DNA from: Mobula hypostoma
Taxonomy: Eukaryota
DNA: 64,000 bases
NCBI RefSeq assembly: GCF_963921235.1
Contig: NC_086107.1
Span: 100,876,001-100,940,000 of the forward strand
Direction of reading: 5' to 3'
The notes beneath the pieces were generated by a model that worked only from the letters and a program-made list of their open reading frames with translations, was not told the origin of the DNA and searched no databases. Positions 2,493-55,871 of this stretch are shown here, one piece after another (position 1 is the stretch's first letter; each line of letters starts with the position of its first letter). The position numbers and the translations under genes were made by a program.

Positions 2493-3523
2493 TCAAGCAA
2501 CACACATCAAAGTTGCTGGTGAACGCAGCAGGCCAGGCAGCATCTATAGGAAGAGGTACAGTCGACGTTTCGGGCCGAGACCCTTCGGCAGGACTAACTG
2601 AAGGAAGAGCTAGTAAGAGCTTTGAAAATGGGAGGGGGAGATCCGAAATGATAGGAGAAGACAGGAGGGGGAGGGATGGGGCCAAGAGCTGGACAGGTGA
2701 TTGGCAAAAGGGATATGAGATCATGGGACAGGAGGCCCAGGGAGAAAGAAAGGGGGAGCGGAGCCCAGAGGATGGGCAAGGGGTATAGTGAGAGGGACAG
2801 AGGGACAAAAAGAATGTATTTATATAAATAAATAACGGATGGGGTACGAGGGGGCGGTGGGGCATTAGCGGAAGTTTGAGAAGTCAATGTTCATGCCATC
2901 AGGTTGGAGACTACCCAGACGGAATATAAGGTGTTCCTCCAACCTGAGTGTGGCTTCATCTTTATAGTAGAGGAGGCCGTGGATAGACATATCAGAATGG
3001 GAATGGGACGTGGAATTAAAATGTATGGCCACTGGGAGATCCTGCTTTCTCTGGCGGAGAGATAATGGCATGAACATTGACTTCTCAAGCTTCCACTAAT
3101 GCCCCACCTCCCCCTCGTACCCCATCCGTTATTTATTTATATACACACATTCTTTCTCTCTCTCTCCTTTTTCTCCCTCTGTCCCTCTCACTATACCCCT
3201 TGCCCATCCTCTGGGTTTTCCCCCTGTCCCCCTTTTCATTCTCCCTGGGCCTCCTGTCCCATGATCCTCTCATATCCTTTTTGCCAATCAACTGTCCAGC
3301 TCTTGGCTCCATCCCTCCCCGCCTGTCTTCTATCATTTTGGATCTCCCCCTCCCCCTTCCACTTTCAAATCTCTTACTAGCTCTTCTTTCAGTTAGTCCT
3401 GATGAAGGGTCTCGGCCCGAAACGTCGACTGTACCTCTTCCTAGAGATGCTGCTTGGCCTGCTGCATTCACCAGCAACTTTGATGTGTGTTGCTTGAATT
3501 TCCAGCATCTGCAGAATTCCTCG
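2493..3523. mobile_element. Penelope-like element (PLE) remnant with two inverted arms (GIY-YIG C-terminus + pLTR), nested in the RTE
   Basis: ORF 2865..3077 (PVAIHFNSTSHSHSDMSIHGLLY...LEEHLIFRLGSLQPDGMNIDFSNFR); arms ~2493-3062 (-) and ~3065-3523 (+); TSD TCTTTGCTGCT at 2482-2492 and 3524-3534. Confidence 0.85.
3394..3431 (+). ncRNA. Minimal type I hammerhead ribozyme, intact core
   Basis: UAGUC-CUGAUGA-A-GGGU(CUCG)GCCC-GAAA-C-GUC^GACUG; stem I UAGUC/GACUG; predicted cleavage after 3426. Confidence 0.8.
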
Positions 3524-5531: not shown

Positions 5532-5760
5532 TAAAAACGCAAACAAACAGGAATTCTGCAGATGCTGGAAATTCAAGCAATACACATCAAAGTTGCTGGT
5601 GAATGCAGCAGGCCAGGCAGCATCTCTAGGAAGAGGTACAGTCGACGTTTCAGGCCGAGACCCTTCGTCAGGACTAACTGAAGGAAGAGTGAGGACTGTA
5701 CCTCTTCCTAGAGATGCTGCCTGGCCTGCTGCGTTCACCAGCAACTTTGATGTGTGTTAT
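5532..5760. mobile_element. Short palindromic PLE pLTR insertion
   Basis: Inverted arms ~5532-5690 (-) and 5694-5758 (+); TSD CGTTGTTAGAT at 5521-5531 and 5761-5771. Confidence 0.85.
5639..5676 (-). ncRNA. Minimal type I hammerhead ribozyme, intact core
   Basis: Reverse complement reads UAGUC CUGACGA A GGGU CUCG GCCU GAAA C GUC GACUG. Confidence 0.72.
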
Positions 5761-7109
5761 CGTTGTTAGATACTAGGTTTCCTAGAATCTATTTGCTAAG
5801 AAAACCATGGTCAAACTCACAAAATGTATCGCACAACAACAGCGTCAAGAGGATCTTCAAGACAATTCTGAAGGTGCTTCGCTCGGTAGAGTTGATTCTG
5901 GGCAGCAGCGGATCCCCGACCGTCATCAAACTACTGCTCATAAAATAGGCCTTCTGCAAGTTAGGAAATAATGACCGCGCTTCAGAAATGGTAGATGCAA
6001 ATGTTTAATAGACGGACAGAACCCCAAGGAGGGAAACATTTTTCCTGACCACATAAAGGGCTATTTGGGTTACAGAATCTAGGGTGGATCTCCCCGCAGT
6101 CCTCTCGGTTGCATTTCACATTTACCCTCTAGTAATCAATTCTCTCTGGTATATTTACCCACCACTCATCGGCACTTCGTGGCAAGTTAAATGATGAATG
6201 CCCTCAGCTTGAATGGTCGACTCCCCCCCGCCCCCCCAATGTTGTTGAGTTCCTTCAGCATTTTCTGTATGTTGCTGAAGATTTCCAGCATCTGCAGACT
6301 CTGTGTTTGAACCTAACTTGCATGTCTAGAGTACCTGAAGTAAACGTGCGCATTCACAGGAGGATTGCTGAATGAGTGGTTGAAGCTTGGTTGCTCACTG
6401 TAGATCAAGACCATGTATCTTAGCCATGGAGGGCCATTGACCAATGGGGTTAACACGGAAAGGTGCCCACTAGTGTGGGTCAGATGGGCAGAATGACTTA
6501 TTTCCTTGCTGCATGATTCGAATAACGTGCAATCTTCACAGTTGATAGAATGGCCAGTGTACTGACTGGGGTTGGTGACTTTTCATCATGGCAGATTTGG
6601 TTACGGTTATTCAGCTGAATGCGAGTGGAAATATGAATGGCCATTGACTGGTGATTTGCTTCTTGTGGATGTACAAACGTAACTTGGCATTATCAGCTGA
6701 AATCTTCATCTAAAGGTGACCAAAAAATTCAAATTCCTGAGGTAAAGTGACAACGATGGACAGCAGCTTTTGACTGACTTGAGGTATCAAGGAACTTTGG
6801 TGAAACTAAAATGAATAGGAATTGAAAACTCCATACCTCGTGCAACGATTACCGTGGCTGCTGAAGGATCGGTCACTGATCCCCTGGAGTTTCCTCATCC
6901 TGACCATCCTCTGTTGCCTCATATTGTATGGGTCTTGTTTCATGAGCACACACTTGTTCAAAAGTTGCAAATTGTTTTGGAAACATCTCTTCTGACCTTA
7001 TGATGGAAGGCAGATATTTAATTATTTGGACATTGACACATGTGTTGAATGTTCTCTGTCTTCCCTCTCCATATTTTTCTGATCATCATCTTGCCACCTC
7101 TCCCCCACA

Positions 7110-7523: not shown

Positions 7524-8078
7524 AATGGACATTGAACCCATGAACACTACCTCGCTATAAAAATATATATGTGTGTCTCTGTGTGTTTACTGGTTTATTT
7601 ATATTTTAATATGTATTGCAGTGTACTGTTGTCGCATAACAACAAATTTCACGATATATGACAGTGATATTAAATTTGATTCTGATTACTTTCACAGATG
7701 AACCCGGCACCCATCTTTGTTTTCTCAGTAAGACACTTGCCACTCCTCCCCTAATTTCCTCACACTTGTTGCAACCTTAATCTGATCTAAAAGCACTAAC
7801 TTCCAAATTTCCACATTCCACAGTGGCGAGAGGCTGTTGAGAAATGACATTTGTGCTGGCCTTTTCAAGGTCCTTGTCAGTGATGAAATGTCCAAGCCTC
7901 AGCTGTATGAAGGGTCTCGGCCCGGAGAATCGACTGTTTACTCTTCTCCATAGATGCTGCTTGGCCTGCTAGGCTGCTTCAGATTTTTGTGCGTGTACAG
8001 GTGCTCTAACATGATTGTAAATTAGTTTCAATTTCTTGACCCTTTTTGACAGTTAGCTTTTGCTATTTTGTATTGAAG

Positions 8079-8184: not shown

Positions 8185-8460
8185 GTGAGAAAGCATTAAT
8201 TCTACCAGGTAGCCAAGTAACAGAAATGTGAAAACATTTGGTTTAATATTCCCCTTTGGTACCTTCAATTGAACCTTATGACCAACATATAGTATTGAAA
8301 TCTTTGGAATCAGTGGTATTGCTTTCATGACAAAATTACATTGCTTAATCAAAATCTGATGCTGATTCACACAAAGTAATATTCACCCAGAATTTGTGGT
8401 CAGCAGCAAAGCGGGTATGCTAAGGGAAGCCAGTACCAGAGGTTGTGGAGGTATTATTTA

Positions 8461-18762: not shown

Positions 18763-19013
18763 ATAAATATACGATTTGCCACTACGACATCTGCTATCAT
18801 AACGCTGTCAGTTTTGACGAATGGTACGCAACTGAAACTTTCCAGAAGCTATCACTACTTGCTATAAACACAAGAAATTCTGCAGACACATAAATATAAA
18901 ATTTGCCACTATGACATTTGCTATCATAATACTGTCAGTTTTGACGAATGGTACACACCTGAAATTTTCCAGAAACTATTACTACTTGCTATAAACACAA
19001 GAAATTCTGCAGA
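18763..19013. repeat. Diverged tandem duplication, period 127 bp
   Basis: Units start ATAAATAT at 18763 and 18890 and both end ...AGAAATTCTGCAGA. Confidence 0.9.
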
Positions 19014-19127
19014 TGCTGGAAATCCAATGCAACACACACAAAACCCTGGATGAACTCAGCAAGTCAGACAGCACGCATGGGAATGAACAAACAGTTGATG
19101 TTTCGGGCCGAGACCCTTCTTCTGGAC
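18991..19127 (-). mobile_element. Single-arm PLE pLTR remnant with degenerate hammerhead
   Basis: TSD TTACTACTTGCT at 18979-18990 and 19128-19139. Confidence 0.8.
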
Positions 19128-20439
19128 TTACTACTTGCTGCTCTCTCTCTTTATTCTCCTGCTGGGAATCCGCTAGTAGAGGACCAATAGGCCTCTATTC
19201 AATTACACTGCTATATAATCTTAGAGAGCAGATAATTCCACCTCCCCATCACAAAGACGTGGGTGGTTGGTTAATTAGCCACTTTATGTGTAAGTGGTAG
19301 AATCTGGGGGGAGTGAATGGGAACGTGAGGGAATAAAATAGGATTAGTGTAAATAGATACTTGACAAAGGGCCTGTTTCTGTGCTGTGTGACTCTATAAA
19401 TACTGTTCAGTCAGCAGCTCTAGGAGGAGTTTCAGTTCTAGGTTCTGTGTGTACTTGTACATCAGCAACTTGCATTTTATTAACACATATCACATAGTAA
19501 AAGGTGCAAGGCATTTCCCAGAAGTGACATCAAACAAAATCTGATATTTTGAGGAGTTAGGGTGAATGACTCCAGGCATGAAGGGATACGGGGAGAAGGC
19601 TGGAGACTGGGGCTGAGAGGAAAAATGGATCAGCCATGATGAAATGGAGCAGACTCGATGGGCCGAATGGCCTAATTCTGCTCCTGTGTCTTATGGTCTT
19701 ATTGTTTGTTCGTTATGTGCCGTGTCATATGACGTTGGCGAGCATGGTATTTCCATGATCATGATTGTTCTTGGCAAATTGTTCTACAAAAGTGGTTTGC
19801 CATTGCCACCTTCTAGGCAGTGTCTTTATTAGACGGGTAACCCCAGCAAATATCAATACTCTTCGGAGATAAAACCATAAGACATAGGAGCAGAATTAGG
19901 CCATCTGGCCCTTCGAGTCTGCTCCGCCATTCAATCATGGCTGATCCTTTTTTTTCTCCTCCTCCCATGGCTTCACATGACTCTGATCGGGGCCTAAGCA
20001 GGTGCTACACCTTGCCTATAGGTGACCTGCAGACTAGCAGAGGGAAGGAATGCCTTACATCTCCTTTAGTAGGGATGTATCTCTACACTGCTACCTTTAT
20101 GGTCTTAAAATCTACCACTTTGTCCAGGCTACCTTTATAAGATAATATCAAATTTTGATAACTTGCAAATTGCCCCTATCTGTTACTCCAGAGCTGTTAT
20201 TTCAACACAATTTATATTTTTATGCATTTTAATCTGCCTCAAATTTCAATAGGAAATAAACTGAATCTGAGCAGCTACTTCACTCTTCAATCTCATAACT
20301 GAGGAATTTACACTGTTGGAGGTATTCCTTTACTCTTCATTGCCACTGGAGACCAAGTGTGGGGGTTACTGAAATTGTCTTTGTGCTACAAATGTAAAGG
20401 AAGCATTCTTAAGGTTTAGAAAGCAAAAATCAGACTGGG

Positions 20440-25520: not shown

Positions 25521-26684
25521 GTCTTAGCGGTGCATTGAAGAGTTTGATTTGCTAGGAAGCAGTAGGTTGGAGATCTGGTGATCACTGAGGGATTGTGATC
25601 TGACTACTTTTCCCAAGCTAGTAAATACAAGTAATGGAAGTTATTTTAGTATTGCTGATGTGAGGTCAGGTGACCTGCAGCTTTCAATGTACATGATCAA
25701 AAATTTGCAGAATGAGAGCAAAAGCCCACTCACTTCACATCCACTGTAGCTGGTCAGCTGCTCATTCAGTTAGATCATGGCTGAATACATCTTAATCTCA
25801 ACGTCTTACTTTCATGCTTCCATAAATCTTAATACCCTTGACTGATTAATAACCTCAATGCTGTATGTCTAGATTGACCATTATCCACCACCAACCCTCC
25901 AGCTTCTCACAACATGTAGAAATGTGGGAGTTCCAGATACCTGCACTAGTCCTCGCATTGTTTCCTGAATCACCCTGAATAAACTGTTTCCAATCCCAGA
26001 TTATTTTTTTTACTGGCTTGTTCTAAAATTTCCCATCAGAAGAAATAGCTTCTCTGTTCACTCTATCAATGCACTTAATCACATTAAACACTTCAGTTAG
26101 TTTATCACGTAATCCTCTGGATTCAAGGCAAGTAAATCATAGAATAGTTATGCTGTAAAAGCAGTCTGTGCCAATTCCTAATAGAGCAATCCCATCAGAT
26201 CCCTTCCCCTGTTTGTTTCCCATAGATTGACAAATTATTCTGCTCTGAAAGCATGTATTAATTCTAATCACCATCTCTACAAAGTGAATTCCATAACTGA
26301 ACTACCAAATTAATTATTTTCTTCCTGCATCCCTGGCATTCTTTTCTCGGTTTTAAATCTTTGATTATGGTTTTGGTCCACTTAGTAATGGAGATTGGCT
26401 TCCTTTTATCTATCTTCTCTTAAGCCACTCATGGTCAGGCACATCTCTACAAATCTCTTCTTGGCCATCTTTCCTCCAAGGGAAATCTCATTGCATTAAA
26501 CTAAGAGCAACACAAACAAAATGCTGGAGGAAAGCAGGTCAGGCAGCATCTACAGAGAGGAATAAACAGTCAGCGTTTCCGGCTGAGATCCTTAATCAGG
26601 ACTGGTTTCCAGTATCTGCAGAATTCTGAACTAAATAATTCTAATTTGAGCAATTGTTTGGCCTTTCCCATTATTATTCTAAAC

Positions 26685-26768: not shown

Positions 26769-27183
26769 GTCTAAACCTAACGATCCACTGACCGACAGAC
26801 CAGTAAGTCCAACTCTTTCAACAATCAGATCCAATAATGCCTCCTTCAGAAAGTTCTCACCTTTTAATGTTGTTCTAATCAATATCGGGGTAACTAAACT
26901 CCTTCTCTGTGATCACCACACTCCATTTCTTGTAAATTTCTGTAATTTGCCTGCCGATCTCTCCTCACAATTTTGTGGTCTATAGAAAACCCTTAGTAGT
27001 TCCATTCTTGGTTAACTTTAACCATATGGATTCTATACTTGACCTCTCAAACACCCCTATTCCCCAGGATTAATTAACTTCCTGGAGATAGTCTCACCTA
27101 ACATTTTCTCTTCTCTTTCTTTTCAAAATCTTAGTCTTTCTTTTATTCTATTTTCATTGTTCATGCTATCATTACCTTTATTT

Positions 27184-27298
27184 AAGCAACACACATAAAA
27201 GTTGCTGGTGAACGCAGCAGGCCAGGCAGCATCTCTAGGAAGAGGTACAGTCGACGTTTTGGGCCGACACCCTTCGTCAGGGCATTAATGACCCTTTG
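27184..27298 (-). mobile_element. Single-arm PLE pLTR remnant
   Basis: Same subfamily as 5532-5760; TSD TCATTA(C/A)CTTTATTT at 27169-27183 and 27299-27313; hammerhead GAAA changed to AAAA. Confidence 0.75.
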
Positions 27299-30535: not shown

Positions 30536-30740
30536 CACAAACAACAGGAATTCTGCAGATGCTGGAAATTCAAGCAACACACATAAAAATTGCTGGTGAA
30601 CGCAGCAGGCCAGGCAGCATCTCTAGGAAGAGGTGCAGTCGACGTTTCAGGCCTGACGAAGGGTCTCGGCCCGAAACGTCGACTGTACCTCTTCCTAGAG
30701 ATGCTGCCTGGCCTGCTGCGTTCACCAGCAACTTTTATGT
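30536..30740. mobile_element. Short palindromic PLE pLTR insertion with central hammerhead
   Basis: Inverted arms meet at ~30652; TSD ATATTGTTATCTT at 30523-30535 and 30741-30753. Confidence 0.88.
30648..30685 (+). ncRNA. Minimal hammerhead ribozyme, core intact, one stem I mismatch
   Basis: CAGGC CUGACGA A GGGU CUCG GCCC GAAA C GUC^GACUG; predicted cleavage after 30680. Confidence 0.62.
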
Positions 30741-33339
30741 ATATTGTTATCTTGATGGTTTTTGTGGAACCTTGTTGGCTTCTGTTTTCCAAATTACAAT
30801 GGAGATCATGTTTTAAAAATACTGAATTGGCAGCTGTGCACTAGGACATCTTAAATTATAACACTAGTATTTTTTAAAAATTTATTTTTGAGATACAGCA
30901 TGGAACAGGCTCTTCCAGCCCTGCAGCCCACTGATTTAACCCGTGCCTGATCACGGGACAATTTACAGTGATCAATTAACCTACCAACTAGTATGTTTTT
31001 GCATCATGGGAGGAAACCCATGCCCACGTGGGAAGGAACGTACAAACTTACTTAGAGAAGACACTGGAATTGAGCTCCGAATTCCAACGCCCTGAACTGT
31101 AACAGTGCCATGCTAACCACTATGCTACTTTAGTAAACAGGGGTGTAATCTTCTGTCCCAGAGGAAGGTTTGTACTTCCCATTTGCAAATCAGAATAAAA
31201 ACAAAAAAATGCTGGCAATATTCAGCAGGCCAGACTGCATCTGTGGGAAGAGCAACAGTAAACATTTCAGATGAAAGCCCCTTCGTCAGATCTGGGAAGG
31301 AGACAACATCTTGATAAGCTGCAGGGAGGATTGGGGAGGGGAGATGTCTGACAGAGTAAAACCAGGGGTAAATATCCCTCCTTCCTCCCTCAGCATCCTT
31401 GCAAGTTTCTTTTCTCCTTCTCAATTTTGTTGACGTGCCTTCCACTTGAAATGTTAATTCTATTTCTCTTCCCACAGATATAGCCTGATTTGCTATTTCC
31501 AGAACTTAAAGTTTTAATTTTAACTTGCCATTCGATGTAGTGTAAAGAAATGATTTATAATAACTAATTTGTTGTCTAACATTGATTATAGAGAGCTGTT
31601 ACAGTCTAGAGAGGCTAAATGTTGAATCAGCCCTTTAGGCTGAATTCAGAACATTCACAACTTTCAGGATCTTGATCATATTTTATATTCACTTCATTTG
31701 AATGCATCTTAAGAAGGTGCATTGGCAAAGATTGGATACAGAGGGCAGAAAGACAAAAAAGAGAACAAGGAGTTCCACGATTATGCTTTGAGAAATCCTT
31801 TGCCAAGTTTCTTGAATCTGGTGGAATGCTCATTTGGCAATTGAATATGGAGTTTAGCAACATTATCAGTTTCACAGTTGGAAAAGGTCAAAACTTTTGG
31901 AATGGAATGGTAAGAAGGGTAAAAAGTGAACAAGACAAAGTGGAACACTGTAGAGCTGGAAATTGTCCAGTGTTAAATACATGGTGCACAATTGGAAATG
32001 TGTTTTCTGTGAGGGTCTGCTGCTGTTAGATGTGTTGTGTACAACAGATCTTTCAAGCTCAATGTGCCTTTCCTTGGTTTGCACGGCTAATGCTGGTTGG
32101 TTATGGGAACTGGGACATCATGGATTGGATCCTGGTATTTGGGAGATGGGTGGTGGTGTGCAAGGATGAACAGTGAGGTAAGGGGACCTACCTGCAGACT
32201 GTTCCAGAGACTCTTCCTTGATCACTTACTCTGTCCTGCATTGTCATTAACAAGTGTTTCCTGAATGGCATAATTGTACCTGTTTCAACCGCTTCCTCTG
32301 ACAACTCATTTCATATACTTTCCACTGTGTGTGAAAAGGCCCCTCTTAAATCTTGCCTGTCACACTAAATCTGTGCCCCCTAGTTTTGGATTCCCCTATC
32401 CTGGGAAAAAGCCTGCTACCATACACCTTATCTATGCCTCTTAAAATTTTAAACATTTCTATAAGGTCACCCCTTATTGTACATTCCAACAAATAATGAC
32501 GTCGCCTGGCTAAACTTTCCCTACAATTCAAGCCTTCTAGTCATGGCAACTTCCTCACGAGTTCTTTTCTGCACTGCTTTCCAGTTTAGCTGTGCCCTAG
32601 CCATAACAAAGTGACTAAAACTGTGGACAGTAATAATAAAATGTACTGCCAGGTGCTTTGATGTGTGACGACTATCAACACCATTTACACTAATCTTAGT
32701 TCGTCCTCTACATTTCTCAACAACTCCCACACAGATTCTATTATTCATTTGCACTCTAAGGCCACACAGAACATGAGTTGAAGAGTCATGTTCTGTAGTG
32801 AATCTGTAGCTTGTGGAATCCGTTCAGACTCGGCCTGATGGCTGCAGGGTAATAATTGTTACGTGCTGTCTGACCACGTGGCTTTTCTTCAGATGCTCAG
32901 CTTTCCTCCCACGTCCCCAAGTCGTACGAGTTGGCGAGTTAATTGGCCGCAGTGAATTGCCCCCAATATGTAGGTGAGAGGTAGAATCTGGTGGGCGGGA
33001 GAAGTACCGATTAAGTGGAATTAGTGAGGGTCGTTAACGGTGAGCACAAAAAGCGCGGGAGGGTTTGCTTCCTGTGAGTCAGAAATCTGATGAAAGGCCA
33101 TTTCGTTGAAATTGTTAACTCTTGCTCCTCTGGTATAAGGAGCAGTCGAACATTTCCAGTACACTGCGTAATGTAAATTCTGTAGCAGCATTTTGCCATT
33201 TAGGCGTTAGCGCTCGCGTCCTAGCAAAAGTGCAGAAAGTTATCTGATTTCATTGCGAGATCTTACTTTGCACAGATTGCCCGCTAGTTTTGCTCAACAC
33301 GGTGATCTCACTGCGAAACTACTTCGGCCTGGGCTGTGA

Positions 33340-34688: not shown

Positions 34689-34909
34689 GTGAAACACGAA
34701 TCGAGCTTTAATAATTAATATTTTATTTTGTATATTAACGGAGAGCCCCTGCCATCAGCGCGCAGAGAGAGGGAGAGGTTGAAAAGGCACAGCTTGGCCT
34801 ATTAAAAATACATGCTAAGTTGAGGAGTATTGATGATCAGAATCCTGTACTTTCTGTTGGTCAAAGGGCTGCATGCCGAGAAGTCTGGTTAAAGTATATA
34901 CAGTTATGA

Positions 34910-35360
34910 GAGTAACACTCTCAAATTGCTGGAAGTTTCTCAGCAGGCCAGGCAGCATCTATGGAAAAGAGTAAACAGTGGACGTTTTGGGCCTAGACCC
35001 TTCCTCGTGACTAAGTGGGGGGGGGGAGATGAGAAGTCAGAGTAAGAAGGTGGGGTGAGGGGAGGAAGAAGTATAAGGTAATAGGTGAAACTGGGAGATG
35101 GGGAGGGAGGGGTGAGGTAAAGAGCTGAGAAGTCCATTGGTGAAAGAGAGAAAGGGCTGGAGGAAGGGGAATCTGATGGCGGAAGATTATAGAAGAATGG
35201 GAAAGGGAGGGAGCTCCAGAGGGAGGTGGTGGGCAGGTAAGGAGATAAGGTGAGAGAGGGGAATAGTGAAGGAGGGGGTTGGGGCAATTACCAGAAGTTT
35301 GAGAAATCGATGTTCGTGCCATCAGGTTGAAGGCTCCCCAGGTGGAATATGCGGTGTGAG
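34910..35360 (-). mobile_element. PLE remnant (GIY-YIG tail + pLTR, degenerate hammerhead)
   Basis: Homologous to the 2493-3062 arm (AGAAGTTTGAGAAATCGATGTTCGTGCCATCAGGTTG). Confidence 0.7.
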
Positions 35361-35547
35361 AGACATAGATAAGGTAGACAGAATCCTTTTCCCAGGGTAG
35401 AAATGTCAAACACTGGAGGCCATTGGGTTACGGTCAGAAGGGGAATGTTTATAGGAGATGTGTGAGGGGAGAGTCCTACACAGAGGGTGGTGGGTATTTG
35501 GAAAGCCTTGCCAGGGGATATAGTAGAAACAATAGCAATGAATCAGA

Positions 35548-35737
35548 AAACACAAAATACTCTGCAGATGCTGGGGTCAAAGCAACACTCACAACACGCT
35601 GGAGGAACTCAGCAGGTCGGGCAGCATCCGTGGAAAAGATCGGTTGATGTTTCGGGCCGGACGAAGGGTTCCGGCCAGAAACGTCGACCGATCTTTTCCA
35701 CGGATGCTGCCCAACCTGCTGAGTTCCTCCAGCGTAT
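35548..35737. mobile_element. Short palindromic PLE insertion, second subfamily
   Basis: Inverted arms meet at ~35658; TSD CAATGAATCAGA at 35536-35547 and 35738-35749. Confidence 0.85.
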
Positions 35738-37887
35738 CAATGAATCAGATTTCTGATTCGGTTGTCTCTGAAAACAGAGTATTCAGTATAGACGATCAGG
35801 CAGGCAATGGAGGGACAGACCATGTGCCAGAGGATGGGATTTATATAATTTAGCATTGTGGTTGGCACAGATATGGTGCGCTGATTAGCCTCTTCCTGTG
35901 TTATGTTCTGCTGTTTCTATGTTTCTGAGATAGGCAGTATAATAAGAAATTTGTAACTTTGACACTGCCATGTGTGAAGGCTGGATTAATGCAAGGGATG
36001 AAACCATTCAGCTGGTGTTTATGTTCAGTACTGATTTCCCATTACTCCTATCCATCACAGTCCTTTCTCCCTCAAACTTGCACTTGAATGCACCTCCTTC
36101 ACATCTACTCTACGTGGATTAATTGGAGAGGATATTTCCAATGGTGGGAGAGTCTACAACCAGAGGACCCAGCCTCAGAATAGAGGGGCATCCTTTTAGA
36201 ATGGAGATGAGGAGGGATTCCTTTAGCCAGAGAGTGGTGACTCTGTGGAATTCATTGCCTCAGGCATTTGTGGAGGCCGAGTCTTTGGGTATATTTAAGG
36301 CAGAAGTTGATCGATTCTTGTTTAGTCGGGGCATGAAGGAATACAGGATGAAGGCAGGAGACTGGGGCTGAGAGGAAAAGTGGATCAGCCATGATGAATT
36401 GATGAAGCAGACTCGATGGACCAAATGGCCTAATTCTGCCCCCTTTTCTTATGGTCTAAACCACTCTCTGGGTAAATGAAATCCCTGCAAATCCTTTGGA
36501 TGTATTGGTGACCTACTCACCTGTCCTCATTGTTTCCCAGTGGAAAGCATCCTTAATTTAGCCAGCCCTTTCAGGTCAAGGACACCTTGCTGCTTTTGCA
36601 GTTCTGAGATGGACGATGAGCACCCTCTGTGGGATCTGCAGACTGCCACAGGTGAGGTAGGAGGTGCTTAACTGCGCGTGTGGGTAGTTTGGGAGGTAAT
36701 GTGCTTCTGTTGCCTTCTTCATGCTCTCATGAATACTGAATACTCTGTTTTGAGCAGTTATAGGCTATGAGTCAATGATGATGCTCGATTGCTTCCTGAG
36801 AAATTTCAATTGGTTCAGCATGGACTAGATGGGCCAAAGGGCCTGTTCCTGTGCTGTACTTTTCTATGACTCTAACCCTCAAAGTCCTTTCCCTGTCTAG
36901 CTGGTGATAGAGCTCAGCACAATGTGCCTGTTTCAGGAGACTAATGTCAGGCATGCAGATGATGTGCCTCACCCTTGGATCCGGTTGTATGTGATTAAAA
37001 GGTCTGCTGGGGGTTCTGGCTGAGGACCCTGTTGGTGGTTCTTACTGACGAAGTTCTAGGAGTTCAAGAGGTGGCATTGCTGTTACCTCTCCAGTGCTTT
37101 GCGATACCTTCTGTAGGTAATCCACATCACTTCTGCTCAGCACTGGGGACTGGAGCCTTGAATGCTCTTTCCTCATACGGTCAGAGAAATTGTTACTGAA
37201 TTTCATGAGTTCAAAGGTATGGAGAGTACTCCATGTTTTCTGGGGTTTTGTCATTCATTCATTATTGTTGGGAGTGATAGCATTATGTGGCACGGGCAGC
37301 TTGTTTGTGAACCTTCGTTTACAGACATTTGATATAAATGCTATTCTTTCTTGTTCATCAGTCAACACGTTAGTAAAGTCTAAGATGTTGTCCTCAAAGT
37401 GTACTCCTACGCAAGTGTCATCTGCTTATTGTAAAATTGTTGGCCAAATGTCAGTTCTAGTGTAAACTACAGAAAATGGATGGTTTCCCTTTCTTCCTAC
37501 CCGTTTGCTGTACTTCACTGGGACGATTGTGAAGATGAGATTTATTGATACGCTTTTTATGAACTAGCTTTGAACTTCCATGAGAACTACTTTCACTGTG
37601 TGTTCCCTACCAAACTCCAAACAGTTCTTAGCATTCCCTTTCTGGAGAAAGGATACCATGTACAATTTTTAGCATCTTTAATCTGTTTATTAAGAAGATA
37701 TAAAATTCCTTTCACAAACAAGAAACAATCTGCAGATGCTGGAAATCCAAGCAACATACACAAAATGCTGGAGGAACTCAGCAGGCCAGGCAGCTTCTAT
37801 GGAAAAGAGTACAGTCGATGTTTTGGGCCAGAACCCTCTTTTTGTCATGTATTTGCTGATATTTTAAAGCTGAATCTTTCTTTAAAT

Positions 37888-37969: not shown

Positions 37970-38699
37970 GTTTAAATAGTTTGGAATGTTACCCTGTTGA
38001 AAATGGTTTACTGATGTAAGGTCTCAACCCAAAACTTTGACTGTCCCAGTACCTTCTGCAGTTTGTTTTCCTCTTGCTTCAGATTACAACATCTGTAGCC
38101 TTTTGTGTCTGCTCTCTGAAATGTTACCCATTGTGCCATGAGACAACTGTATGACAAAAGGTGCATGTCGAGTATTTTTCCTATGTCTTCTGAATAAAGT
38201 ATTGTGTTATATAATAATGGGTGGAAATTGGTATGTGGTGGGAATGAGAACGAAACCAGTGTAACACGCTGAACCTGGGTCTTTGACAATAGGTTTCAAG
38301 TCTGGCCCACACTGATCAGAGGCACTCTCCTGATTTATAAAGGATATGAATGAAGTGAACTTGATGCAAGTTGTGTTGGGCTCCCATCAGACATGGCTAT
38401 TTGGGGTGCCACGATAGCGTCGTGGTTAGCATGACACTTTACAGCACAGGTGACCTGGGTTCAATTCCTGCCGCTGACTGTAAGGAGTTTGTACGTTCTC
38501 CCCGTGACCTCGTGGGTTTCCTCCCACAATCTAAAGACGTAGCAGTGTGTTGACCAAATGATCACTGAAAATTGTCCTGTGACCAAGCTAGGATTAAATC
38601 GGGGGGATTGCTGGGCGTCATGGCTTGAAGGGCCAGAAGGGCCTATTCTGTGCTGTATCTCAATAAAATAAAATTAAATTAAAAAATATAAATTGAGAG

Positions 38700-39530: not shown

Positions 39531-40059
39531 AAACTCTTTCAGCAAGGGGCCTGCACAAACACCGTGTGTTAGCTGGCTTCCCTCTGTTGTATAGTCCTGT
39601 GATTCAATGAAATGGATATAGGGCAGTTCTGCATGGTAAAAATGGATAAAATCTCATGTCAGGAGATTTTCCTTTAGGTTGCGGGATATTGTTTGAGGCT
39701 ATAGAGCAGGGGTCCCCAGACCACTCGGTTAACGGTAGGAGTTCATGCACCCCAGCAGAGCATTGCTAATGTACATCCAACTATTTTTTGGAATTTAGCT
39801 TACTCCAAGAAATGGTACTGTAGAGGGAAGGAAGTAAATGACTAACTTATTTAAATATACAGTCATTTGTGGTGCACAAGCACACGTATGGGCACAAAGG
39901 CGCACACATGCATAAACATTTGCACACACGTTGCTGGAGGACCTCAGCAGGTCAGGCAGCATCCGTGGAGGGGAAAAAAGGGTGTGGACTGTTTATTCCC
40001 CTCCATGGGTGCTGCCTCGCTTGCTGAGTTCTTCCAGCATTTTGTATGCGATGCCCAAA

Positions 40060-41850: not shown

Positions 41851-43633
41851 AGGTACTGATGAAGAGTATCGGCCGGAAATGTCAGCTGCTTATTCCCGTC
41901 CATAGATGCTGCCTGGCCTGCTGAGCCCCTCCAGCAGATTGTGTGTATTGCTGCAGATTTCCAGCATCTGCAGTATTTCTTGTGTCTAGGTTTTGATGAA
42001 ATTTGCTATCACTTTCAGTGCACCAGGGCAACCTTTGGTTAATTGAGGGAAAAGTCAAGGACTGAAACCTGGTGCAGAGCACAGTCTGTTTAGCCGCAGT
42101 GATTCCTGTCTTTCCGTACTGCCTGTAAAATCCTCCAAATCCACTGAAGATGGATTTTCAATGTTCATGGATGGATGGATGGATTTCATTTCTTCAGCAG
42201 GTCAACATCACCAAAACCGGGTTTGTTGGGCAGGCCACATCGCTTTCATACTTGCCACCAGACTCCATTAAAGTTCCATTATATAGCTGGAGATTACCAG
42301 GCAGACAGAGGACGTTGTTCACAACCCCCTAGAAAAAAAAAGGGAATGCAACATCTGCACTGACACTAAGGAACTTCTGGCCTGTGGTCATTCAAAGAAG
42401 GAGCTTTCAACTTGGAGCCATGTGTCAAGAGCGGGCAGAAGCCTTGTGTACATATCTCAAGGAGTGCACCACCTTCGAAGCTACAAACTTGTCCAACCTG
42501 TCTTGACGCCTCCTCTTCCCTCTGGCGCTCTGTAACTCCCACAATGGCATCATCATTTGTCTCAGAGCTCACAGAATCTGAGGGGAAGGAGGTTCTCCTC
42601 CATTCCAAGGTACTGCGCCTTGTGAAAACAATAAAATTTCAGTACAAAAGCTGCATTGAGGCAAAGGGTTTGAGGAGTCAACTACCCCTCGTGCATTGGT
42701 ATTGGATTATTATTAACTCGTGTACTAAGGACCTCGACCTTGTCATGTTCTGGAGGCTTGCATGCCTCAACGACCCTGAGAAATATGGTGGCTGGAGTCA
42801 GGACTTTGTGCTTTGGCTCTTTGTAGGCTCACCCATGCCAATCAGGTCAAAGGGTAGATGACAGAGGAAGAGTGGTCCATCAGTCCTCCAGGTTTAGGGG
42901 TTCAGCTCAAGGCTAGCAAACCTGACTGGTCAAACAAAATTGTTATGGACACAGCAATGGAGAATCCTTCTACATCTGCGTGGTCAAGGATAGACAGATG
43001 GAGGACCTTCATTGTTGCCCTAAATGCCAGCAGGTGTAATGGACAACTCATATGTACTAAGATGCTGTGGATAATTAGTTTTGTATGCCATCCATAAAGG
43101 TCATTTCAAAGCGTAACCACTTTGAGGTAGTAAAGTTGAAGTTGAGTTCATTGTCCTATACGCAAGTACATGCAGCAGCCTCACAGGTAGAACGTGTCAT
43201 ATAAGCAACATTCACAAGAAAAAGCGTGCATTAACCATAAATTATTCACAATTTTTACAAGAATGACACAATCTAGGTATGAGGAATGAAGTATACTTTA
43301 GTGCAAAGTGATCAAAGTAGTCATCATGTTGCTAAGTTGTAGTGATTAGGGTTTGCTGGTTGGTTTATGAACTGAATGGTTGATGGGAAGTAGCTGTTCA
43401 AGAACCTGGAAGTATGGGACTTTAGGCTTCTGTACCTCTTGCCTGATGGTAGCTGCGAGAAAATGGCATAATCTGGATAGTGGAGAGCTTTGATGATAGA
43501 TCTTTTGTAGACTCAGTGGTTTCTGAAGTACAAAACAAAAACAATGACAATGCAGAATAGTGTTACAGCTATAGTTCTTAGAAGTTAGATTGAAAAGAGG
43601 AGAACAATTGTAATGTATGTAATGAATAGACCT

Positions 43634-43802
43634 ACACAAAATGCTGGAGGAACTCAGCAGGCCAGGCAGCATCTATGGAAAAGAGTCTTGCTGAAGGATC
43701 TCAGCCCAAAACATTGACTATACTGTTTTCCATAGATGCTGCCTGGCCTGCTGAGTTCTTCTAGCAGTTTGTCTGTGTTGCATCTGCAGATTTTCTCTTG
43801 TT
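43634..43802. mobile_element. Short palindromic PLE insertion (older)
   Basis: Inverted arms; TSD TGTAATGAATAGACCT at 43618-43633 and 43803-43818. Confidence 0.82.
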
Positions 43803-43934
43803 TGTAATGAATAGACCTGCTGGGAGCCATCTGCTCATCAGTATAAAGGGGAAGTCATGGCTGGGTTAAGGATTTGAGGAAGAAATTATGGTGCGGACAC
43901 TGGTAGGCCTTAATGGTCTGTGCAAACTGGTGAC

Positions 43935-46694: not shown

Positions 46695-47370
46695 CGGTGC
46701 TCCCGATGTGGCCTCCTCTACATTGGTGAGACCCACCATAGATTGGGGGCCTGCTTTGCTGAGTAGCTTCGCTCCATCCGCGACAAGTAGGATTTCCCAG
46801 TGGCCGACCATTTTAATTCCAATCCCCACTCCCATTTTGACATGTCGGGCCATGGGCTCCTCCACCTCCATGGTGGGGCCACTCTCAGGCTGGAGGAGCA
46901 TTGCTTCATTTTCCATCTGGGGTAGCCTCTGTTCTGATGGCATGAACGTCGATTTCTCTAACTTCCGGCAAATTTTCCCCCTGCTCCTTCCCTCTTCTTC
47001 CTTTCCCCACTGTGGAGCCCCTCTTATCTTCTCTGTTCCTCACCTTCCCTTTCTCCCATGGCCAACTCTCCCCTCCAATCAGTTTCCTTCTTAATTGGTC
47101 CTTTACCTATTCCACCAATCACCTCCCAGCTTCTTATTCCCCCCTCCCCTACCTATAGGCTTCACTTATCACCTTAATGCTTGTACTCCTATCCCTTCCT
47201 TCACTGTCTCATTCTGTCTTCCTCCCCCTTCCTTTCCAGTTCAGATGCAGGGCCTCGGCCAAAAGCGTCAACTGCTTATTCATTGCCATAGGTGCTGCCT
47301 GACCTGCTGAGTTCCTCCAGCATTTTGTATGTATTAATCTGGATTTCCTGCAGAATCTTTTGTGTTTGTC
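46695..47370 (+). mobile_element. PLE remnant with GIY-YIG endonuclease fragment and pLTR
   Basis: CSRCGLLYIGET...PVADHFNS...DGMNVDFSNFR across frameshifts; degenerate hammerhead at ~47238-47275. Confidence 0.8.
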
Positions 47371-55122: not shown

Positions 55123-55871
55123 ACACTCACAACACGCTGGAGGAACTCAGCAGGTCGGGCAGCATCCGTGGAAACGATCAGTTGATGTTTCAGGCCGGAA
55201 CCCTTCATCAGGACTGTAGAGGGAAGAGGCAGAGGCCCTATAAAGAAGGTGGGGGGAGGGTGGGAAGGAGAAGGCTGGTAGGTTCCAGGTGAAAAACCAG
55301 TAAGGGGAAAGATAAAGGGGTTGGGAAGGGGAGGCAGGGAGGTGATAGGCAGGAAAGGTGAAGAAGGAATAGGGGAAAACACAATGGGTAGTAGAAGGAG
55401 GCGGAACCATGAGGGAGGTGATAGGCAGCTGGGGGAGGGGGCAGAGTGAAATAGGGATAAGGGAAGGGAGGGGGAGGGAATTACTAGAAGTTGGAGAATT
55501 CTATGTTCCTACCAAGGGGCTGGAGACTACCTAGACGGTATATGAGGTGTTGCTCCTCCAACCTGAGTTTAGCCTCATCATGGCAGTAGAGGATGCCATG
55601 TATGGACATATCCAAATGGGAACGTGAAGCAGAGCTGAAGTGGGTGACAACTGGGAGATCCTGTCTGTTGTGGCGGACGGAGCGGAGGTGCTTGACGAAG
55701 CAGTCCCCCAATCTGCATCGAGTTTCACCGACGTAGAGGAGGCCGCACCGGGAGAACGGGATGATTGATACGTTGACTGATCGTTTCCATTGATGTTGCC
55801 CGACCTGCTGCGTTCCTCCAGCGTGTTGTGAGTATTGCTTTGACCCCAGCATCTGCTGAGTATTTTGTGTT
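55123..55871. mobile_element. PLE insertion: long - arm with GIY-YIG endonuclease and short inverted + arm
   Basis: ORF 55484..55852 RCGLLYVGETRCRLGDCFVKHLRSV...HFSSASRSH...LEEQHLIYRLGSLQPLGRNIEFSNF; TSD CACCTCCTATGGGA at 55109-55122 and 55872-55885. Confidence 0.9.

What the first reader, a model, noticed from the sequence alone, without database searches (positions are those of the whole stretch)
3394..3431. Family of minimal hammerhead ribozymes carried by Penelope-like repeats
Seen: the common short repeat contains a full hammerhead core, stem I (UAGUC)-CUGANGA-A-stem II (GGGU CUCG GCCC)-GAAA-C-GUC^-stem I' (GACUG). Cores are intact at 3394(+), 5639(-) and 30648(+). Decayed copies lie at ~2559, 7905, 19092, 26567, 27248, 31260, 34976, 35655, 37812, 38010, 41855, 43686, 47238, 55179, 56620 and 57735. 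The second subfamily changes the stem II loop (UCCG) and swaps a U.G pair for C-G in stem I, preserving the fold. Helix III is reduced to the self-complementary ACGU with no loop, and there is an extra A between A9 and stem II. Established: PLE pLTRs carry minimal type I hammerheads thought to cleave as dimers, and an extra A at this position occurs in the CChMVd (+) hammerhead. Inference: a very high-copy, dimer-dependent hammerhead family in this genome.
Basis: partly seen in the sequence, partly recalled or inferred. Interest (0 to 1): 0.85.

Follow-up and report, generated by a model that had tools for sequence, protein, structure and literature searches.

The report
Penelope-element minimal hammerhead repeats in ray
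The short repeat really does carry a minimal hammerhead ribozyme motif and belongs to the tail of a Penelope-like retrotransposon, which is a known kind of element, so this is a correct but ordinary finding.

Summary
The motif is in the sequence as described. Position 3394-3431(+) has a complete hammerhead core. It has a 5-bp helix I, a 4-bp helix II, an extra A after A9, and helix III reduced to the palindrome ACGU.

The window holds 28 copies of a roughly 110-150 nt unit made of the hammerhead plus a conserved downstream segment. Only 2 of the 20 copies that span the motif still pass a full descriptor (3394+ and 5639-). 30648+ keeps the core but has lost its native helix I strand.

Four copies lie about 250-300 nt downstream of C-terminal GIY-YIG endonuclease fragments. 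These fragments are 84-92% identical to ray proteins, whose roughly 800-aa relatives combine reverse transcriptase and GIY-YIG. The insertions show the textbook Penelope-like layout: target-site duplications, an inverted 5'-truncated copy, and a "tail" at one end.

A covariance model built only from hammerheads of related metagenomic Penelope-like elements finds 3393-3432 at 42.7 bits (E about 4e-8).

Every unusual feature was described for this class in 2014. Cleavage, dimer dependence and in vivo role were not tested. I class it as a new member of a known kind, of low interest.

The parts
3394..3431 (+). Fully intact minimal type I hammerhead. Helix I is UAGUC/GACUG. The core is CUGAUGA with an extra A. 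Helix II is GGGU-CUCG-GCCC. Then come GAAA and helix III reduced to ACGU. The predicted cut is after C3426.
   Evidence: (42.7 bits)
5639..5676 (-). Minimal hammerhead with intact core and stems. N7 is C, and the 10.1-11.1 pair is G.U.
   Evidence: (39.4 bits)
30648..30685 (+). Hammerhead core and helix II are intact. The helix I 5' strand is replaced at the junction with an inverted copy (4 of 5 pairs, not contiguous).
   Evidence: (33.6 bits)
2559..2596 (-). Hammerhead copy with a broken core (CUGCCGA). It lies in the inverted arm of insertion A.
   Evidence: (35 bits)
55179..55216 (-). Subfamily-2 hammerhead with loop UCCG. All core nucleotides are kept, but CpG decay gives ACAU instead of ACGU and changes G1.1 to A.
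   Evidence: (24.4 bits)
2493..3523 (.). Insertion A. An inverted arm (2493-3062, minus strand, without tail) is followed by a direct arm (3064-3523, plus strand, with tail). Both arms are 5'-truncated inside the endonuclease ORF. The target-site duplication TCTTTGCTGCT lies at 2482-2492 and 3524-3534. The element sits inside an RTE-like LINE copy.
2865..3062 (-). C-terminal 64 codons plus the stop of a PLE GIY-YIG endonuclease ORF. It ends 268 nt upstream of the hammerhead at 2596-2559.
   Evidence: (E 2e-27, 84-92% identity to ray proteins)
3064..3099 (+). Last codons and stop (TAA at 3097-3099) of the same ORF in the direct arm. It ends 294 nt upstream of the hammerhead at 3394.
3432..3498 (+). 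Conserved downstream segment ('D'), shared by direct and inverted copies. By analogy with the Anolis element it probably holds the reverse-transcriptase recognition and start region.
   Evidence: analogy
3499..3523 (+). The 'tail'. These terminal nucleotides are present only in the direct (3'-complete) copy of an insertion.
   Evidence: literature
5532..5760 (.). Insertion B. The direct copy is on the minus strand and has a tail. An inverted partial copy lies at 5694-5760(+), and its first base is the base just 3' of the predicted cleavage site. The target-site duplication CGTTGTTAGAT lies at 5521-5531 and 5761-5771.
30536..30742 (.). Insertion C. The direct copy is on the minus strand and has a tail, with an inverted copy on the plus strand. 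The target-site duplication ATTGTTATCTT lies at 30525-30535 and 30743-30753.
35548..35737 (.). Insertion D (subfamily 2), a pair of direct and inverted copies. The target-site duplication CAATGAATCAGA lies at 35536-35547 and 35738-35749.
43634..43802 (.). Insertion F. An inverted partial copy is followed by a direct copy with tail. The target-site duplication TGTAATGAATAGACCT lies at 43618-43633 and 43803-43818.
55123..55871 (.). Insertion G. The inverted arm, without tail, reaches into the endonuclease ORF (55490-55807, minus strand). A short direct arm has the tail. The target-site duplication CACCTCCTATGGGA lies at 55109-55122 and 55872-55885.
18991..19128 (-). Single short copy that starts at the first helix I base and carries the tail. 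The target-site duplication (plus strand TACTACTTGCT) lies at 18980-18990 and 19129-19139. The core is decayed.
35273..35407 (-). Decayed endonuclease C-terminal fragment upstream of the hammerhead copy at about 35010(-).
34901..35010 (-). Decayed hammerhead-D unit.
46695..46971 (+). Endonuclease C-terminal fragment, with stops, that includes the ...CGLLYIGET... motif. It lies upstream of the hammerhead copy at 47240(+).
47240..47352 (+). Decayed hammerhead-D-tail unit.
6192..6297 (+). Decayed unit.
7907..7996 (+). Decayed unit.
26504..26602 (-). Decayed unit, preceded by an inverted tail fragment.
27180..27282 (-). Unit without tail. G12 has changed to A.
31201..31290 (-). Decayed unit of a divergent subfamily.
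31439..31504 (+). Decayed unit of a divergent subfamily.
37730..37839 (-). Decayed unit with tail.
38011..38054 (+). Decayed fragment.
39922..40059 (.). Inverted pair of partial copies without a hammerhead. The plus-strand copy starts within 0-3 nt of the position that matches the cleavage site.
41854..41972 (+). Unit with tail. The core nucleotides are kept but the stems are broken.
56546..56655 (-). Decayed unit.
57674..57766 (-). Decayed unit.

Best explanation
**What it is.** The motif is the minimal hammerhead ribozyme (min-HHR) of an endonuclease-bearing Penelope-like retrotransposon (PLE) family in a cartilaginous fish. The nearest proteins come from rays.

**Where it sits.** It lies in the non-coding region about 250-300 nt downstream of the RT-GIY-YIG ORF (the pseudo-LTR). 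A conserved segment of about 65-70 nt and a 25-45 nt tail follow it.

**Shown here.**
- The sequence motif is present.
- It is physically linked to PLE endonuclease fragments.
- The insertions have the PLE layout.
- The hammerhead block is conserved across subfamilies.
- The motif belongs to the same RNA class as the hammerheads of related PLEs.

**Inferred from the class.**
- A single copy cannot form helix III.
- Two copies pair through the palindrome ACGU, between two RNAs or between two units of one tandem transcript. Together they build a double hammerhead.
- Each hammerhead then cuts after C17, which is C3426 in the reference copy.
- By analogy with the Anolis element, the element's own protein probably assists the reaction.
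- The cut would trim element RNA out of longer or tandem transcripts.

**State of the copies.** The genomic copies are mostly dead, 5'-truncated products of target-primed reverse transcription on both DNA strands. They decay neutrally, mainly at CpG sites.
For: **Motif and chance.** See: 2 descriptor hits in the window and 0 in 200 shuffles.

**Class hallmarks.** All four hallmarks are met (against the text read). [quoted passage not shown]

**Independent model.**
- The covariance model R1 was built from 11 min-HHRs of metagenomic PLE relatives, with no window sequence.
- It scores 3393-3432 at 42.7 bits (E 3.8e-8) over its full length.
- Its 9 best window hits (E up to 0.035) all fall on copies of the family.
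- The same model finds 26 hits in the 80 related PLE loci. Plus-strand hits lie about 85-150 nt past the ORF end, for example in L003, L005, L012, L022, L024, L038 and L067. Minus-strand hits lie just upstream of the ORF, for example in L001, L007, L008, L012 and L073.

**Link to a PLE.**
- Endonuclease C-terminal fragments lie at 3062-2868(-), 35407-35273(-), 46695-46971(+) and 55807-55490(-). Each is about 250-300 nt upstream of a hammerhead on the same strand.
- The 64-aa query gave 6 proteins at E <= 0.001 among 18 candidates. The four best are ray proteins at 77-92% identity.
- The 806-aa homologue P0014 has RVT_1 (29.4 bits) and GIY-YIG (25 bits).

**Insertion layout.** Seven insertions have target-site duplications of 11-16 bp. 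Six of them are pairs of an inverted and a direct copy, with the tail on one copy only. This matches the PLE descriptions read.

**Conservation.**
- In 5 diverged long copies the hammerhead block is 63-86% identical to the reference.
- The 60 nt upstream are 55-61% identical, against a shuffled level of 53%.
- The linker is 47-62% identical and the D segment 62-72%.
- Column conservation rises sharply at about 3395.
- In contigs of two coded species, loose ends pile up at 3395-3397 and at 3430-3434, which are the two edges of the hammerhead.
- Among the differences listed inside the motif, only N7 (3403 T>C) and C11.1 (3418 C>T, still pairing as G.U) reach 10%. That table showed 40 rows and withheld 57.
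Against: **Activity was not tested.** No cleavage assay was possible.

**No covariation in the window.** Across 16 aligned copies, 77.1% of cells are paired against a shuffled mean of 78.2%, with only 1 two-sided change.

**The covariation among relatives is biased.** It reaches 95.5% paired against 58% shuffled, but a descriptor that demands pairing selected those sequences.

**The core is no better kept than the rest.** In the decayed copies the core is conserved no better than the stems or the D segment.

**Energy calculations do not favour the active fold.** The double hammerhead scores -17.9 kcal/mol. An extended duplex of two 42-mers scores -31.7, and each monomer scores -11.7.

**Rfam does not recognise it.** Its curated models give no hit at the gathering score over the window. 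A lax-threshold scan (E up to 10) of 3200-3700 gave no hammerhead match either.

**The literature is cautious.**
- Min-HHRs cleave poorly in vitro even as dimers.
- In the Anolis element, hammerhead mutants still insert in vitro, and no RNA-seq reads start or end at the cut site.

**Most copies are broken.** Only 2 of the 20 window copies are structurally complete.
Confidence: 0.85

Rival explanations
1. The hammerhead-shaped block is kept for a role other than self-cleavage. It might, for example, be part of the RNA structure that the element's protein binds before reverse transcription. Under this reading the ribozyme is not used in vivo.
For: - The downstream D segment is conserved almost as well as the hammerhead.
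- The active dimer fold is not favoured thermodynamically.
- In the Anolis PLE, hammerhead mutants insert normally in vitro and no reads mark the cut site.
- Naiad and Chlamys PLEs thrive without hammerheads.
Against: - Across related PLEs the invariant columns are CUGA, GA and the extra A, G10.1, GAAA and U16.1. These are essentially the catalytic nucleotides. The helix sequences differ freely.
- N7, the one free core position, is also the one that varies in the family.
- The Anolis hammerhead does cleave when protein is present, and cleavage is lost in C3G or G8C mutants.
Confidence: 0.2
2. The short units of about 140 nt are a separate non-autonomous element, SINE-like or retrozyme-like. 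They would start at the hammerhead and be mobilised by PLE proteins, rather than being 5'-truncated PLE copies.
For: - Several copies begin within a few nucleotides of the first helix I base.
- Copy 19128-18991(-) has its target-site duplication directly against that base.
- Some contigs join the end of one unit to position 3394-3397 of another, for example 3505 to 3395 with one extra letter between (table 5c).
- A 2026 preprint argues that animal retrozymes derive from PLE pseudo-LTRs, and it found retrozymes in its single chondrichthyan genome.
Against: - Four copies run on upstream into the endonuclease ORF.
- Other 5' ends are scattered: 3377, about 3405, about 3413-3422 and about 3427-3435 in reference coordinates.
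- Tandem Repeats Finder reports no array of the unit in the window.
- The loose ends at 3395 in contigs carry a C/T-rich sequence like the 3' UTR of another subfamily. They therefore largely mark subfamily divergence, not element ends.
Confidence: 0.15
3. The match to the hammerhead consensus is a chance feature of an unrelated repeat.
For: Rfam gives no hammerhead hit.
Against: - There were no descriptor hits in 200 shuffles of the window, and none in 20 shuffles of the 266 kb of related loci.
- An independent covariance model hits at E about 4e-8.
- The same motif sits at the same place in distant PLEs.
Confidence: 0.01

Closest known systems
Minimal hammerheads (min-HHR) in the pseudo-LTRs of metazoan Penelope-like elements (Cervera and de la Pena 2014, PMC4209133; main text parts 1-2 read, supplement file 2 searched)
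   Same: - Type I topology with a helix I of 4-5 bp.
- An unpaired nucleotide between A9 and G10.1.
- A G10.1-C11.1 pair.
- No helix III loop, and a palindromic 15.2/16.2 pair.
- Location in the PLE flanking repeat.
- Many solo copies, and pairs on opposite strands 100-700 bp apart.
- Many consensus subfamilies per genome.
   Different: - Helix II is 4 bp here, whereas the paper describes 7-8 bp for the Schistosoma families.
- The host is a ray-like cartilaginous fish. The words shark, skate, Callorhinchus and Leucoraja do not occur in supplement file 2. File 1 could not be searched.
- The motif lies about 270-300 nt past the stop codon, against about 85-150 nt in the metagenomic relatives I examined.
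PAc, the Poseidon element of Anolis carolinensis, and its hammerhead (Frangieh et al. 2024, PMC11167929; main text read)
   Same: - A hammerhead without helix III lies upstream of the place where reverse transcription starts.
- There are two classes of 3' end, separated by a tail of a few tens of nucleotides.
- Both DNA strands are cleaved and extended, which explains the inverted copies.
   Different: - In PAc the ORF starts inside the hammerhead. Here N7 is C in many copies, so no AUG is conserved, and the position of the ORF start is unknown.
- PAc has biochemical data and this family has none.
Dimeric type I hammerheads of newt satellite 2 and Schistosoma Sm-alpha (Forster et al. 1988 and Ferbeyre et al. 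1998, as cited)
   Same: Helix III is too weak to form in one copy. Two copies form an extended helix III, the 'double hammerhead'.
   Different: - Those motifs keep a 1-2 bp helix III with a small loop, and conserved loop-loop contacts between helices I and II.
- Here helix III has no loop at all, and helix I is open and short.
Hammerhead with an extra nucleotide after A9 (De la Pena and Flores 2001; title seen, cited; that the viroid is CChMVd is recalled, not checked)
   Same: One unpaired nucleotide lies between A9 and G10.1.
   Different: That ribozyme is a viroid type III hammerhead with a full helix III.
Animal non-LTR retrozymes (Cervera and de la Pena 2020, abstract seen in the listing; Li et al. 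2026 preprint, Results part 1 read)
   Same: They are type I hammerheads related to PLE pseudo-LTRs, and solo 'monomer' copies are dispersed in the genome.
   Different: Retrozymes are defined by tandem arrays and circular RNAs. The window has no array, and I had no usable RNA data.

Membership tests
Hammerhead ribozyme (catalytic core) | Core nucleotides C3 U4 G5 A6 N7 G8 A9, G12 A13 A14, A15.1, U16.1 and H17 (not G), in the right order between helices I, II and III | tested here: met
   and one search show this for 3394-3431. Of the 20 copies, 5 keep all core nucleotides at the reference spacing.
Hammerhead ribozyme (catalytic core) | Three helices, including a closed helix III hairpin in type I, as scored by the curated Rfam models | tested here: not met
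   Helix III is only A-C-G-U, with no loop. Rfam gives no hit at the gathering score over the window. A scan at E up to 10 of 3200-3700 gives no hammerhead match.
Hammerhead ribozyme (catalytic core) | Site-specific self-cleavage 3' of position 17 | not testable with these tools
   This needs in vitro transcription or RNA-end mapping. No raw-read RNA run was on offer.
PLE minimal hammerhead (min-HHR) | A short helix I (4-5 bp), open at the ends (type I) | tested here: met
   UAGUC/GACUG gives 5 pairs, including one U.G.
PLE minimal hammerhead (min-HHR) | [quoted passage not shown] | tested here: met
   A3406 fills this position and is kept in 18 of 20 copies. The same A is present in all 11 relatives of alignment A4.
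PLE minimal hammerhead (min-HHR) | A G10.1-C11.1 pair closing helix II | tested here: met
   G3407-C3418 form this pair. It is G-C in 8 and G.U in 4 of 16 aligned copies.
PLE minimal hammerhead (min-HHR) | No helix III loop and complementary positions 15.2/16.2, so that two copies can pair | tested here: met
   The intact copies read ACGU. Ten of the 11 relatives in A4 read the same ACGU.
PLE minimal hammerhead (min-HHR) | Recognised by a sequence-and-structure model of min-HHRs from other PLEs | tested here: met
   R1, built from 11 metagenomic PLE hammerheads, scores 42.7 bits (E 3.8e-8) at 3393-3432. Non-training true hits in relatives score 26-37 bits.
PLE minimal hammerhead (min-HHR) | Cleavage only as a dimer | not testable with these tools
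   Only an energy calculation was possible. It gives the double-hammerhead fold -17.9 kcal/mol and the best dimer fold -31.7.
Endonuclease-bearing Penelope-like element | [quoted passage not shown] | tested here: inconclusive
   The window holds only the last 45-110 codons of the endonuclease, in four main fragments. Pfam finds nothing in those fragments. The ray homologues show GIY-YIG at 18.8-20.9 bits, below the 22.6 cut-off. The 806-aa relative P0014 shows RVT_1 at 29.4 bits (cut-off 29.6) and GIY-YIG at 25 bits. The architecture is therefore shown in relatives, not in the window.
Endonuclease-bearing Penelope-like element | 5'-truncated insertions with an adjacent inverted 5'-truncated copy, or partial tandems (pseudo-LTRs) | tested here: met
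   Six inverted pairs are present: 2493-3523, 5532-5760, 30536-30742, 35548-35737, 43634-43802 and 55123-55871. The definition was read.
Endonuclease-bearing Penelope-like element | A tail of a few tens of bp present at only one end of the insertion | tested here: met
   Inverted copies end at reference positions of about 3475-3498. Direct copies run on to about 3523 or beyond. The literature gives 30-40 bp. Here the tail is about 25-45 nt.
Endonuclease-bearing Penelope-like element | A hammerhead in the pseudo-LTR | tested here: met
Neptune/Nematis-type PLE | A Cys-rich CX2-5CxxC linker between the RT and the endonuclease | tested here: inconclusive
   A C-x4-C-x2-C stretch is seen in the ray homologues P0001 and P0002 and in the consensus of alignment A2. 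That part of the ORF is absent from the window. No reference clade sequences were compared.
Non-LTR retrozyme | Tandem arrays of units, each with a type I hammerhead | tested here: not met
   Tandem Repeats Finder reports no array of the unit in the window. A few contigs show head-to-tail joints, so arrays elsewhere in the genome are not excluded.

The most novel reading that the evidence does not exclude
The genomic insertions may keep a fossil record of hammerhead cleavage in vivo. The inverted partial copy at 5694(+) begins exactly at the base 3' of the predicted cut, after 4 filler bases. The copy at about 39990(+) begins within 0-3 nt of the matching position. If such 5' ends are enriched genome-wide, some reverse-transcription templates were RNAs already cut by the ribozyme. 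That would be the first in vivo evidence for cleavage by a vertebrate PLE hammerhead. Frangieh et al. 2024 looked for such evidence in RNA-seq data and did not find it.
Probability: 0.12. Interest if true: 0.55.

Novelty: new member of a known kind. Interest (0 to 1): 0.22.

Why it matters
The result adds a cartilaginous-fish family to the known PLE minimal hammerheads. I found no explicit description of that host group in the papers I could search. A 2026 preprint does report PLEs, and retrozymes built on type I hammerheads, in its single chondrichthyan genome.

The family is dense, with 28 units in 64 kb. Its insertions have cleanly resolvable junctions and target-site duplications. It could therefore serve for a genome-wide census of 5' and 3' ends. 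Such a census would test two open points of PLE biology: whether the hammerhead cuts in vivo, and whether the two reverse-transcription start sites seen in vitro for the Anolis element hold in another lineage.

It does not change what is known about hammerheads or PLEs.

Tried and rejected
**Rfam.** There was no hit at the gathering score over the whole window. A scan at E up to 10 of 3200-3700 gave no hammerhead match. Its only hit was a weak lncRNA match, which I take as chance.

**Whole genome.** None is held for this window, so no genome-wide census was possible.

**Earlier notes of this scan.** Nothing came back by place or by sequence.

**Pfam on the window's endonuclease fragments.** No family was found, even at E up to 10.

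**RNA evidence.**
- No RNA holder was listed. All 24 runs are kept as contigs.
- Four runs are only guessed to be RNA. I laid two of them, X13 and X14, and they hold the repeat.
- Contigs cannot show RNA ends, strand or level, and DNA may be present in such runs. I draw nothing on expression from them.
- Summed contig depth is highest over 3375-3514 in all four runs. The tool states that contig depth cannot rank parts of a stretch, so I do not use it as evidence.

**Cleavage-site ends in contigs.** No pile of ends at 3426/3427 appears among the loose ends listed. However, 2234 rows were not shown, so this is no evidence either way.

**Covariation in the window.** There is none beyond chance. 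The copies are decayed descendants of a few masters, so the test has little power.

**ViennaRNA folds.** The monomer MFE pairs part of the core, and the dimer MFE is an extended duplex. Neither is the active fold.

**Literature.**
- Lunse, Weinberg and Breaker (RNA Biol) is not held. I know it only from the text and reference list of PMC6765202.
- A full-text search for a 21-nt string of the repeat found no paper.
- A search for Penelope + elasmobranch + transposable found 4 papers, none about hammerheads by title or abstract.
- The supplements of the bioRxiv preprint are closed. They name the chondrichthyan species and its retrozyme families and could bear on novelty.

**The RT ORFs next to the motif.** I first considered that the reverse-transcriptase ORFs at 3468-4070(-) and 9274-10545(+) belonged to the element.
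- I rejected this. They are one LINE family, with 3499-3800 92.7% identical to 10288-9988.
- By my own reading their motifs are RTE-like.
- The PLE is inserted into the LINE copy, with its own target-site duplication.
Full report
**Observation.**
- helix I 5' strand UAGUC;
- CUGAUGA, then one extra A;
- helix II GGGU/GCCC closed by CUCG;
- GAAA, then C-G-U-C;
- helix I 3' strand GACUG.

Helix III is therefore only A15.1-C-G-U16.1, a self-complementary tetranucleotide without a loop. The predicted cut is after C3426.

I wrote a descriptor with these features. It finds two loci in the window, 3394-3431(+) and 5639-5676(-). It finds none in 200 dinucleotide-preserving shuffles. The 28-nt core string with up to 3 mismatches occurs 6 times against 0 expected.

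**The family in the window.**
- An iterated nhmmer search seeded with 3380-3535 gives 28 hits in 64 kb.
- Twenty hits span the hammerhead. Eight are partial copies that lack all or most of it.
- Of the 20, five keep every core nucleotide at the reference spacing: 3396+, 5674-, 30651+, 41854+ and 55214-.
- Only 3396+ and 5674- also keep both stems and the palindrome. 5674- has G.U at the 10.1-11.1 pair.
- The least conserved columns inside the motif are N7 and the four CpG dinucleotides. That is what neutral decay of methylated vertebrate DNA would give.

**What carries it.**
- The minus-strand reading of 3059-2866 gives a 64-residue C-terminus ending in a stop, 268 nt upstream of the hammerhead at 2596-2559.
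- This peptide finds ray proteins from Hypanus sabinus and Mobula hypostoma, annotated 'uncharacterized', at 84-92% identity and E down to 2e-27.
- Those proteins show a GIY-YIG match just under Pfam's cut-off. By my reading they also show a YIDD reverse-transcriptase motif and a C-x4-C-x2-C linker.
- Their longer relatives are 750-1000 aa. Precomputed Pfam hits for them include RVT_1, and GIY-YIG in about 20 of 72.
- P0014 (806 aa) scores 29.4 bits for RVT_1 and 25 bits for GIY-YIG.
- tblastn of the ray proteins against the window finds endonuclease C-terminal fragments at 3062-2868(-), 35407-35273(-), 46695-46971(+) and 55807-55490(-). It also finds the last codons in the direct arm of insertion A, from 3064(+).
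- Each fragment lies about 250-300 nt upstream of a hammerhead copy on the same strand.
- The repeat is thus the 3' non-coding end of an endonuclease-bearing Penelope-like element (PLE). Only its last 45-110 codons survive anywhere in this window.
- The reverse-transcriptase ORFs beside the motif, 3468-4070(-) and 9274-10545(+), belong to an unrelated LINE into which one PLE copy inserted.

**Architecture of the insertions.**
- Seven insertions have clear target-site duplications of 11-16 bp.
- Six of them consist of an inverted copy followed by a direct copy.
- The inverted copy stops at reference positions of about 3475-3498.
- The direct copy runs on through a further 25-45 nt, the 'tail', to the 3' end.
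- This is the layout described for PLEs. Craig et al. 2021 describe an inverted 5'-truncated copy next to the element and a 30-40 bp tail at one end (passages).
- Frangieh et al. 2024 explain it for the Anolis element (main text). Both DNA strands are cut and extended, and reverse transcription starts at two neighbouring internal sites with the tail between them.

**Is the hammerhead under constraint?**
Covariation is at chance level, with 77.1% of cells paired against 78.2% in shuffles and one two-sided change. The core is not better kept than the stems.
- *Across subfamilies.* The picture is clearer. In five diverged long copies with native upstream sequence:
  - the hammerhead block is 63-86% identical to the reference;
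  - the 60 nt upstream are at background, 55-61% against 53% shuffled;
  - the 15-nt linker downstream is 47-62% identical;
  - the D segment is 62-72% identical.
- *In Logan contigs of DNA runs of two coded species* (165,209 and 149,084 contigs laid at 85% likeness or more):
  - alignments break off in piles at 3395-3397 and at 3430-3434, the two edges of the motif;
  - the only differences listed inside the motif are T>C at N7 and C>U at 11.1, which still pairs with G10.1;
  - that table showed 40 differences and withheld 57, so this is not a complete count.

**Relatives from elsewhere.**
- An alignment of 26 full-length homologues retrieved 80 PLE loci from metagenome contigs.
- My descriptor finds a min-hammerhead in 14 of these 80 loci. 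That is 15 hits, 14 of them on the ORF strand, against none in 20 shuffles of the whole set.
- Of the 15 hits, 12 have a single extra A after A9 and 2 have the two-nucleotide insert AG. Eleven have helix III reduced to ACGU.
- Helices I and II differ in sequence from locus to locus.
- On 11 of them, 95.5% of cells pair against 58% in shuffles. This excess is biased, because the descriptor requires pairing.
- The unbiased use of these sequences is the covariance model R1, built from the 11 without any window sequence.
- R1 finds 3393-3432 at 42.7 bits (E 3.8e-8, rough calibration) over its full length. It finds 5638-5677 at 39.4 bits, 2558-2597 at 35 and 30647-30686 at 33.6.
- All nine window hits with E up to 0.035 are family copies. 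Four of the weaker hits are also family copies. The remaining ten, with E of 0.18 or more, are not.
- In the 80 loci, R1 finds 26 hits. Fifteen of these lie outside the training set, and one of those duplicates a training sequence.
- Plus-strand hits typically sit 85-150 nt past the ORF end. Minus-strand hits sit just upstream of the ORF. This is the same direct-plus-inverted layout as in the window.

**How it most likely works.**
- *Shown here:* the motif, its class and its carrier.
- *Inferred from the class:*
  - One copy cannot close helix III.
  - Two copies pair through ACGU, and in the strand-exchanged form also through helix I. This builds two active sites.
  - The cut would free element RNA from longer or tandem transcripts.
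- *Cautions:*
  - The strand-exchanged double hammerhead of two 42-mers evaluates to -17.9 kcal/mol. An extended duplex gives -31.7, and each monomer gives -11.7.
  - The secondary-structure energy model ignores the tertiary contacts of an active ribozyme.
  - Min-hammerheads cleave poorly in vitro even as dimers.
  - The Anolis hammerhead cleaves only with the element's protein, is not needed for insertion in vitro, and leaves no RNA-seq ends at the cut site.
- I therefore hold the identity with high confidence. I hold the mechanism as the best-supported but untested reading.

**Comparison and novelty.**
These traits are no helix III loop, the extra nucleotide after A9, a short helix I, and many subfamilies.
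- That paper reports such motifs in fishes, coelacanth, Xenopus and reptiles. It also notes motif pairs on opposite strands.
- Its searchable supplement file does not mention sharks or skates. One file could not be searched.
- A 2026 preprint reports PLEs and hammerhead retrozymes in its single chondrichthyan genome. Its supplements are closed.
- This is a new member of a known kind.

**A lead that remains.**
- In insertion B, the inverted partial copy starts at 5694. This is exactly the base after the predicted cut, preceded by 4 filler bases.
- The partial copy at about 39990(+) starts within 0-3 nt of the matching base.
- Other 5' ends lie at about 3377, 3394-3399, 3405, 3413-3422 and 3433-3435 in reference coordinates.
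- With roughly a dozen readable junctions, one exact hit is not significant.
- A genome-wide census would turn this into a real test of cleavage in vivo.

Noticed in passing
window 5690-5698 and 39975-39995: The inverted partial copy of insertion B begins exactly at the base 3' of the predicted hammerhead cut, after 4 filler bases. A second partial copy begins within 0-3 nt of the matching base. These could be run-off cDNA on cleaved RNA, or chance.
   Followed up: partly
window 3471-3476 and 3502-3507, with the copy ends at about 3475-3498 and about 3523-3545 (reference coordinates): The copies have two classes of 3' end, about 25-45 nt apart. The short motif CCAGCA occurs twice, 31 nt apart, each time some 20-25 nt upstream of one class of ends. 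This recalls the two adjacent reverse-transcription start sites of the Anolis PLE.
   Followed up: partly
window 8366-10545(+) and 3524-4070(-): These are copies of one LINE family with RVT_1 hits. By my reading they are RTE-like, with a YADD motif. The minus-strand copy was split by PLE insertion A.
   Followed up: partly
window 18763-19013: A 127-bp unit is repeated twice (91% matches). It covers the flank, the target-site duplication and the last roughly 20 nt of the PLE copy at 18991-19128. This is either a local duplication after insertion or a second tail-only event.
   Followed up: no
window 60904-61536(-): An open frame with a sub-threshold RVT_1 match (26.7 bits, cut-off 29.6). It is not hit by the ray PLE proteins, and I did not determine its family.
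   Followed up: no
proteins P0001-P0005 and P0073: Ray gene models annotated 'uncharacterized protein' are PLE ORF fragments. P0002 reads through the stop into the C/T-rich 3' UTR. A Narcine bancroftii gene model named as a PI3K adapter contains a PLE-like stretch, 59% identical over 18% of the query.
   Followed up: no
window 3060-4100 in runs X1 and X5 (tables 5 and 5c): Some contigs join the end of one unit back to position 3394-3397 of another, for example 3505 to 3395 with one letter between. Others join 3396 to 3484 on opposite strands. Head-to-tail and head-to-head arrangements of the short unit therefore exist elsewhere in these genomes.
   Followed up: no
L012 1054-1093(-) and 3576-3615(+); L008 3337-3375(-) and 3865-3903(+): Related metagenomic PLEs carry one hammerhead downstream of the ORF, or in L008 near the ORF start, and a second one in inverted orientation just upstream. 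This mirrors the inverted pairs in the window.
   Followed up: partly
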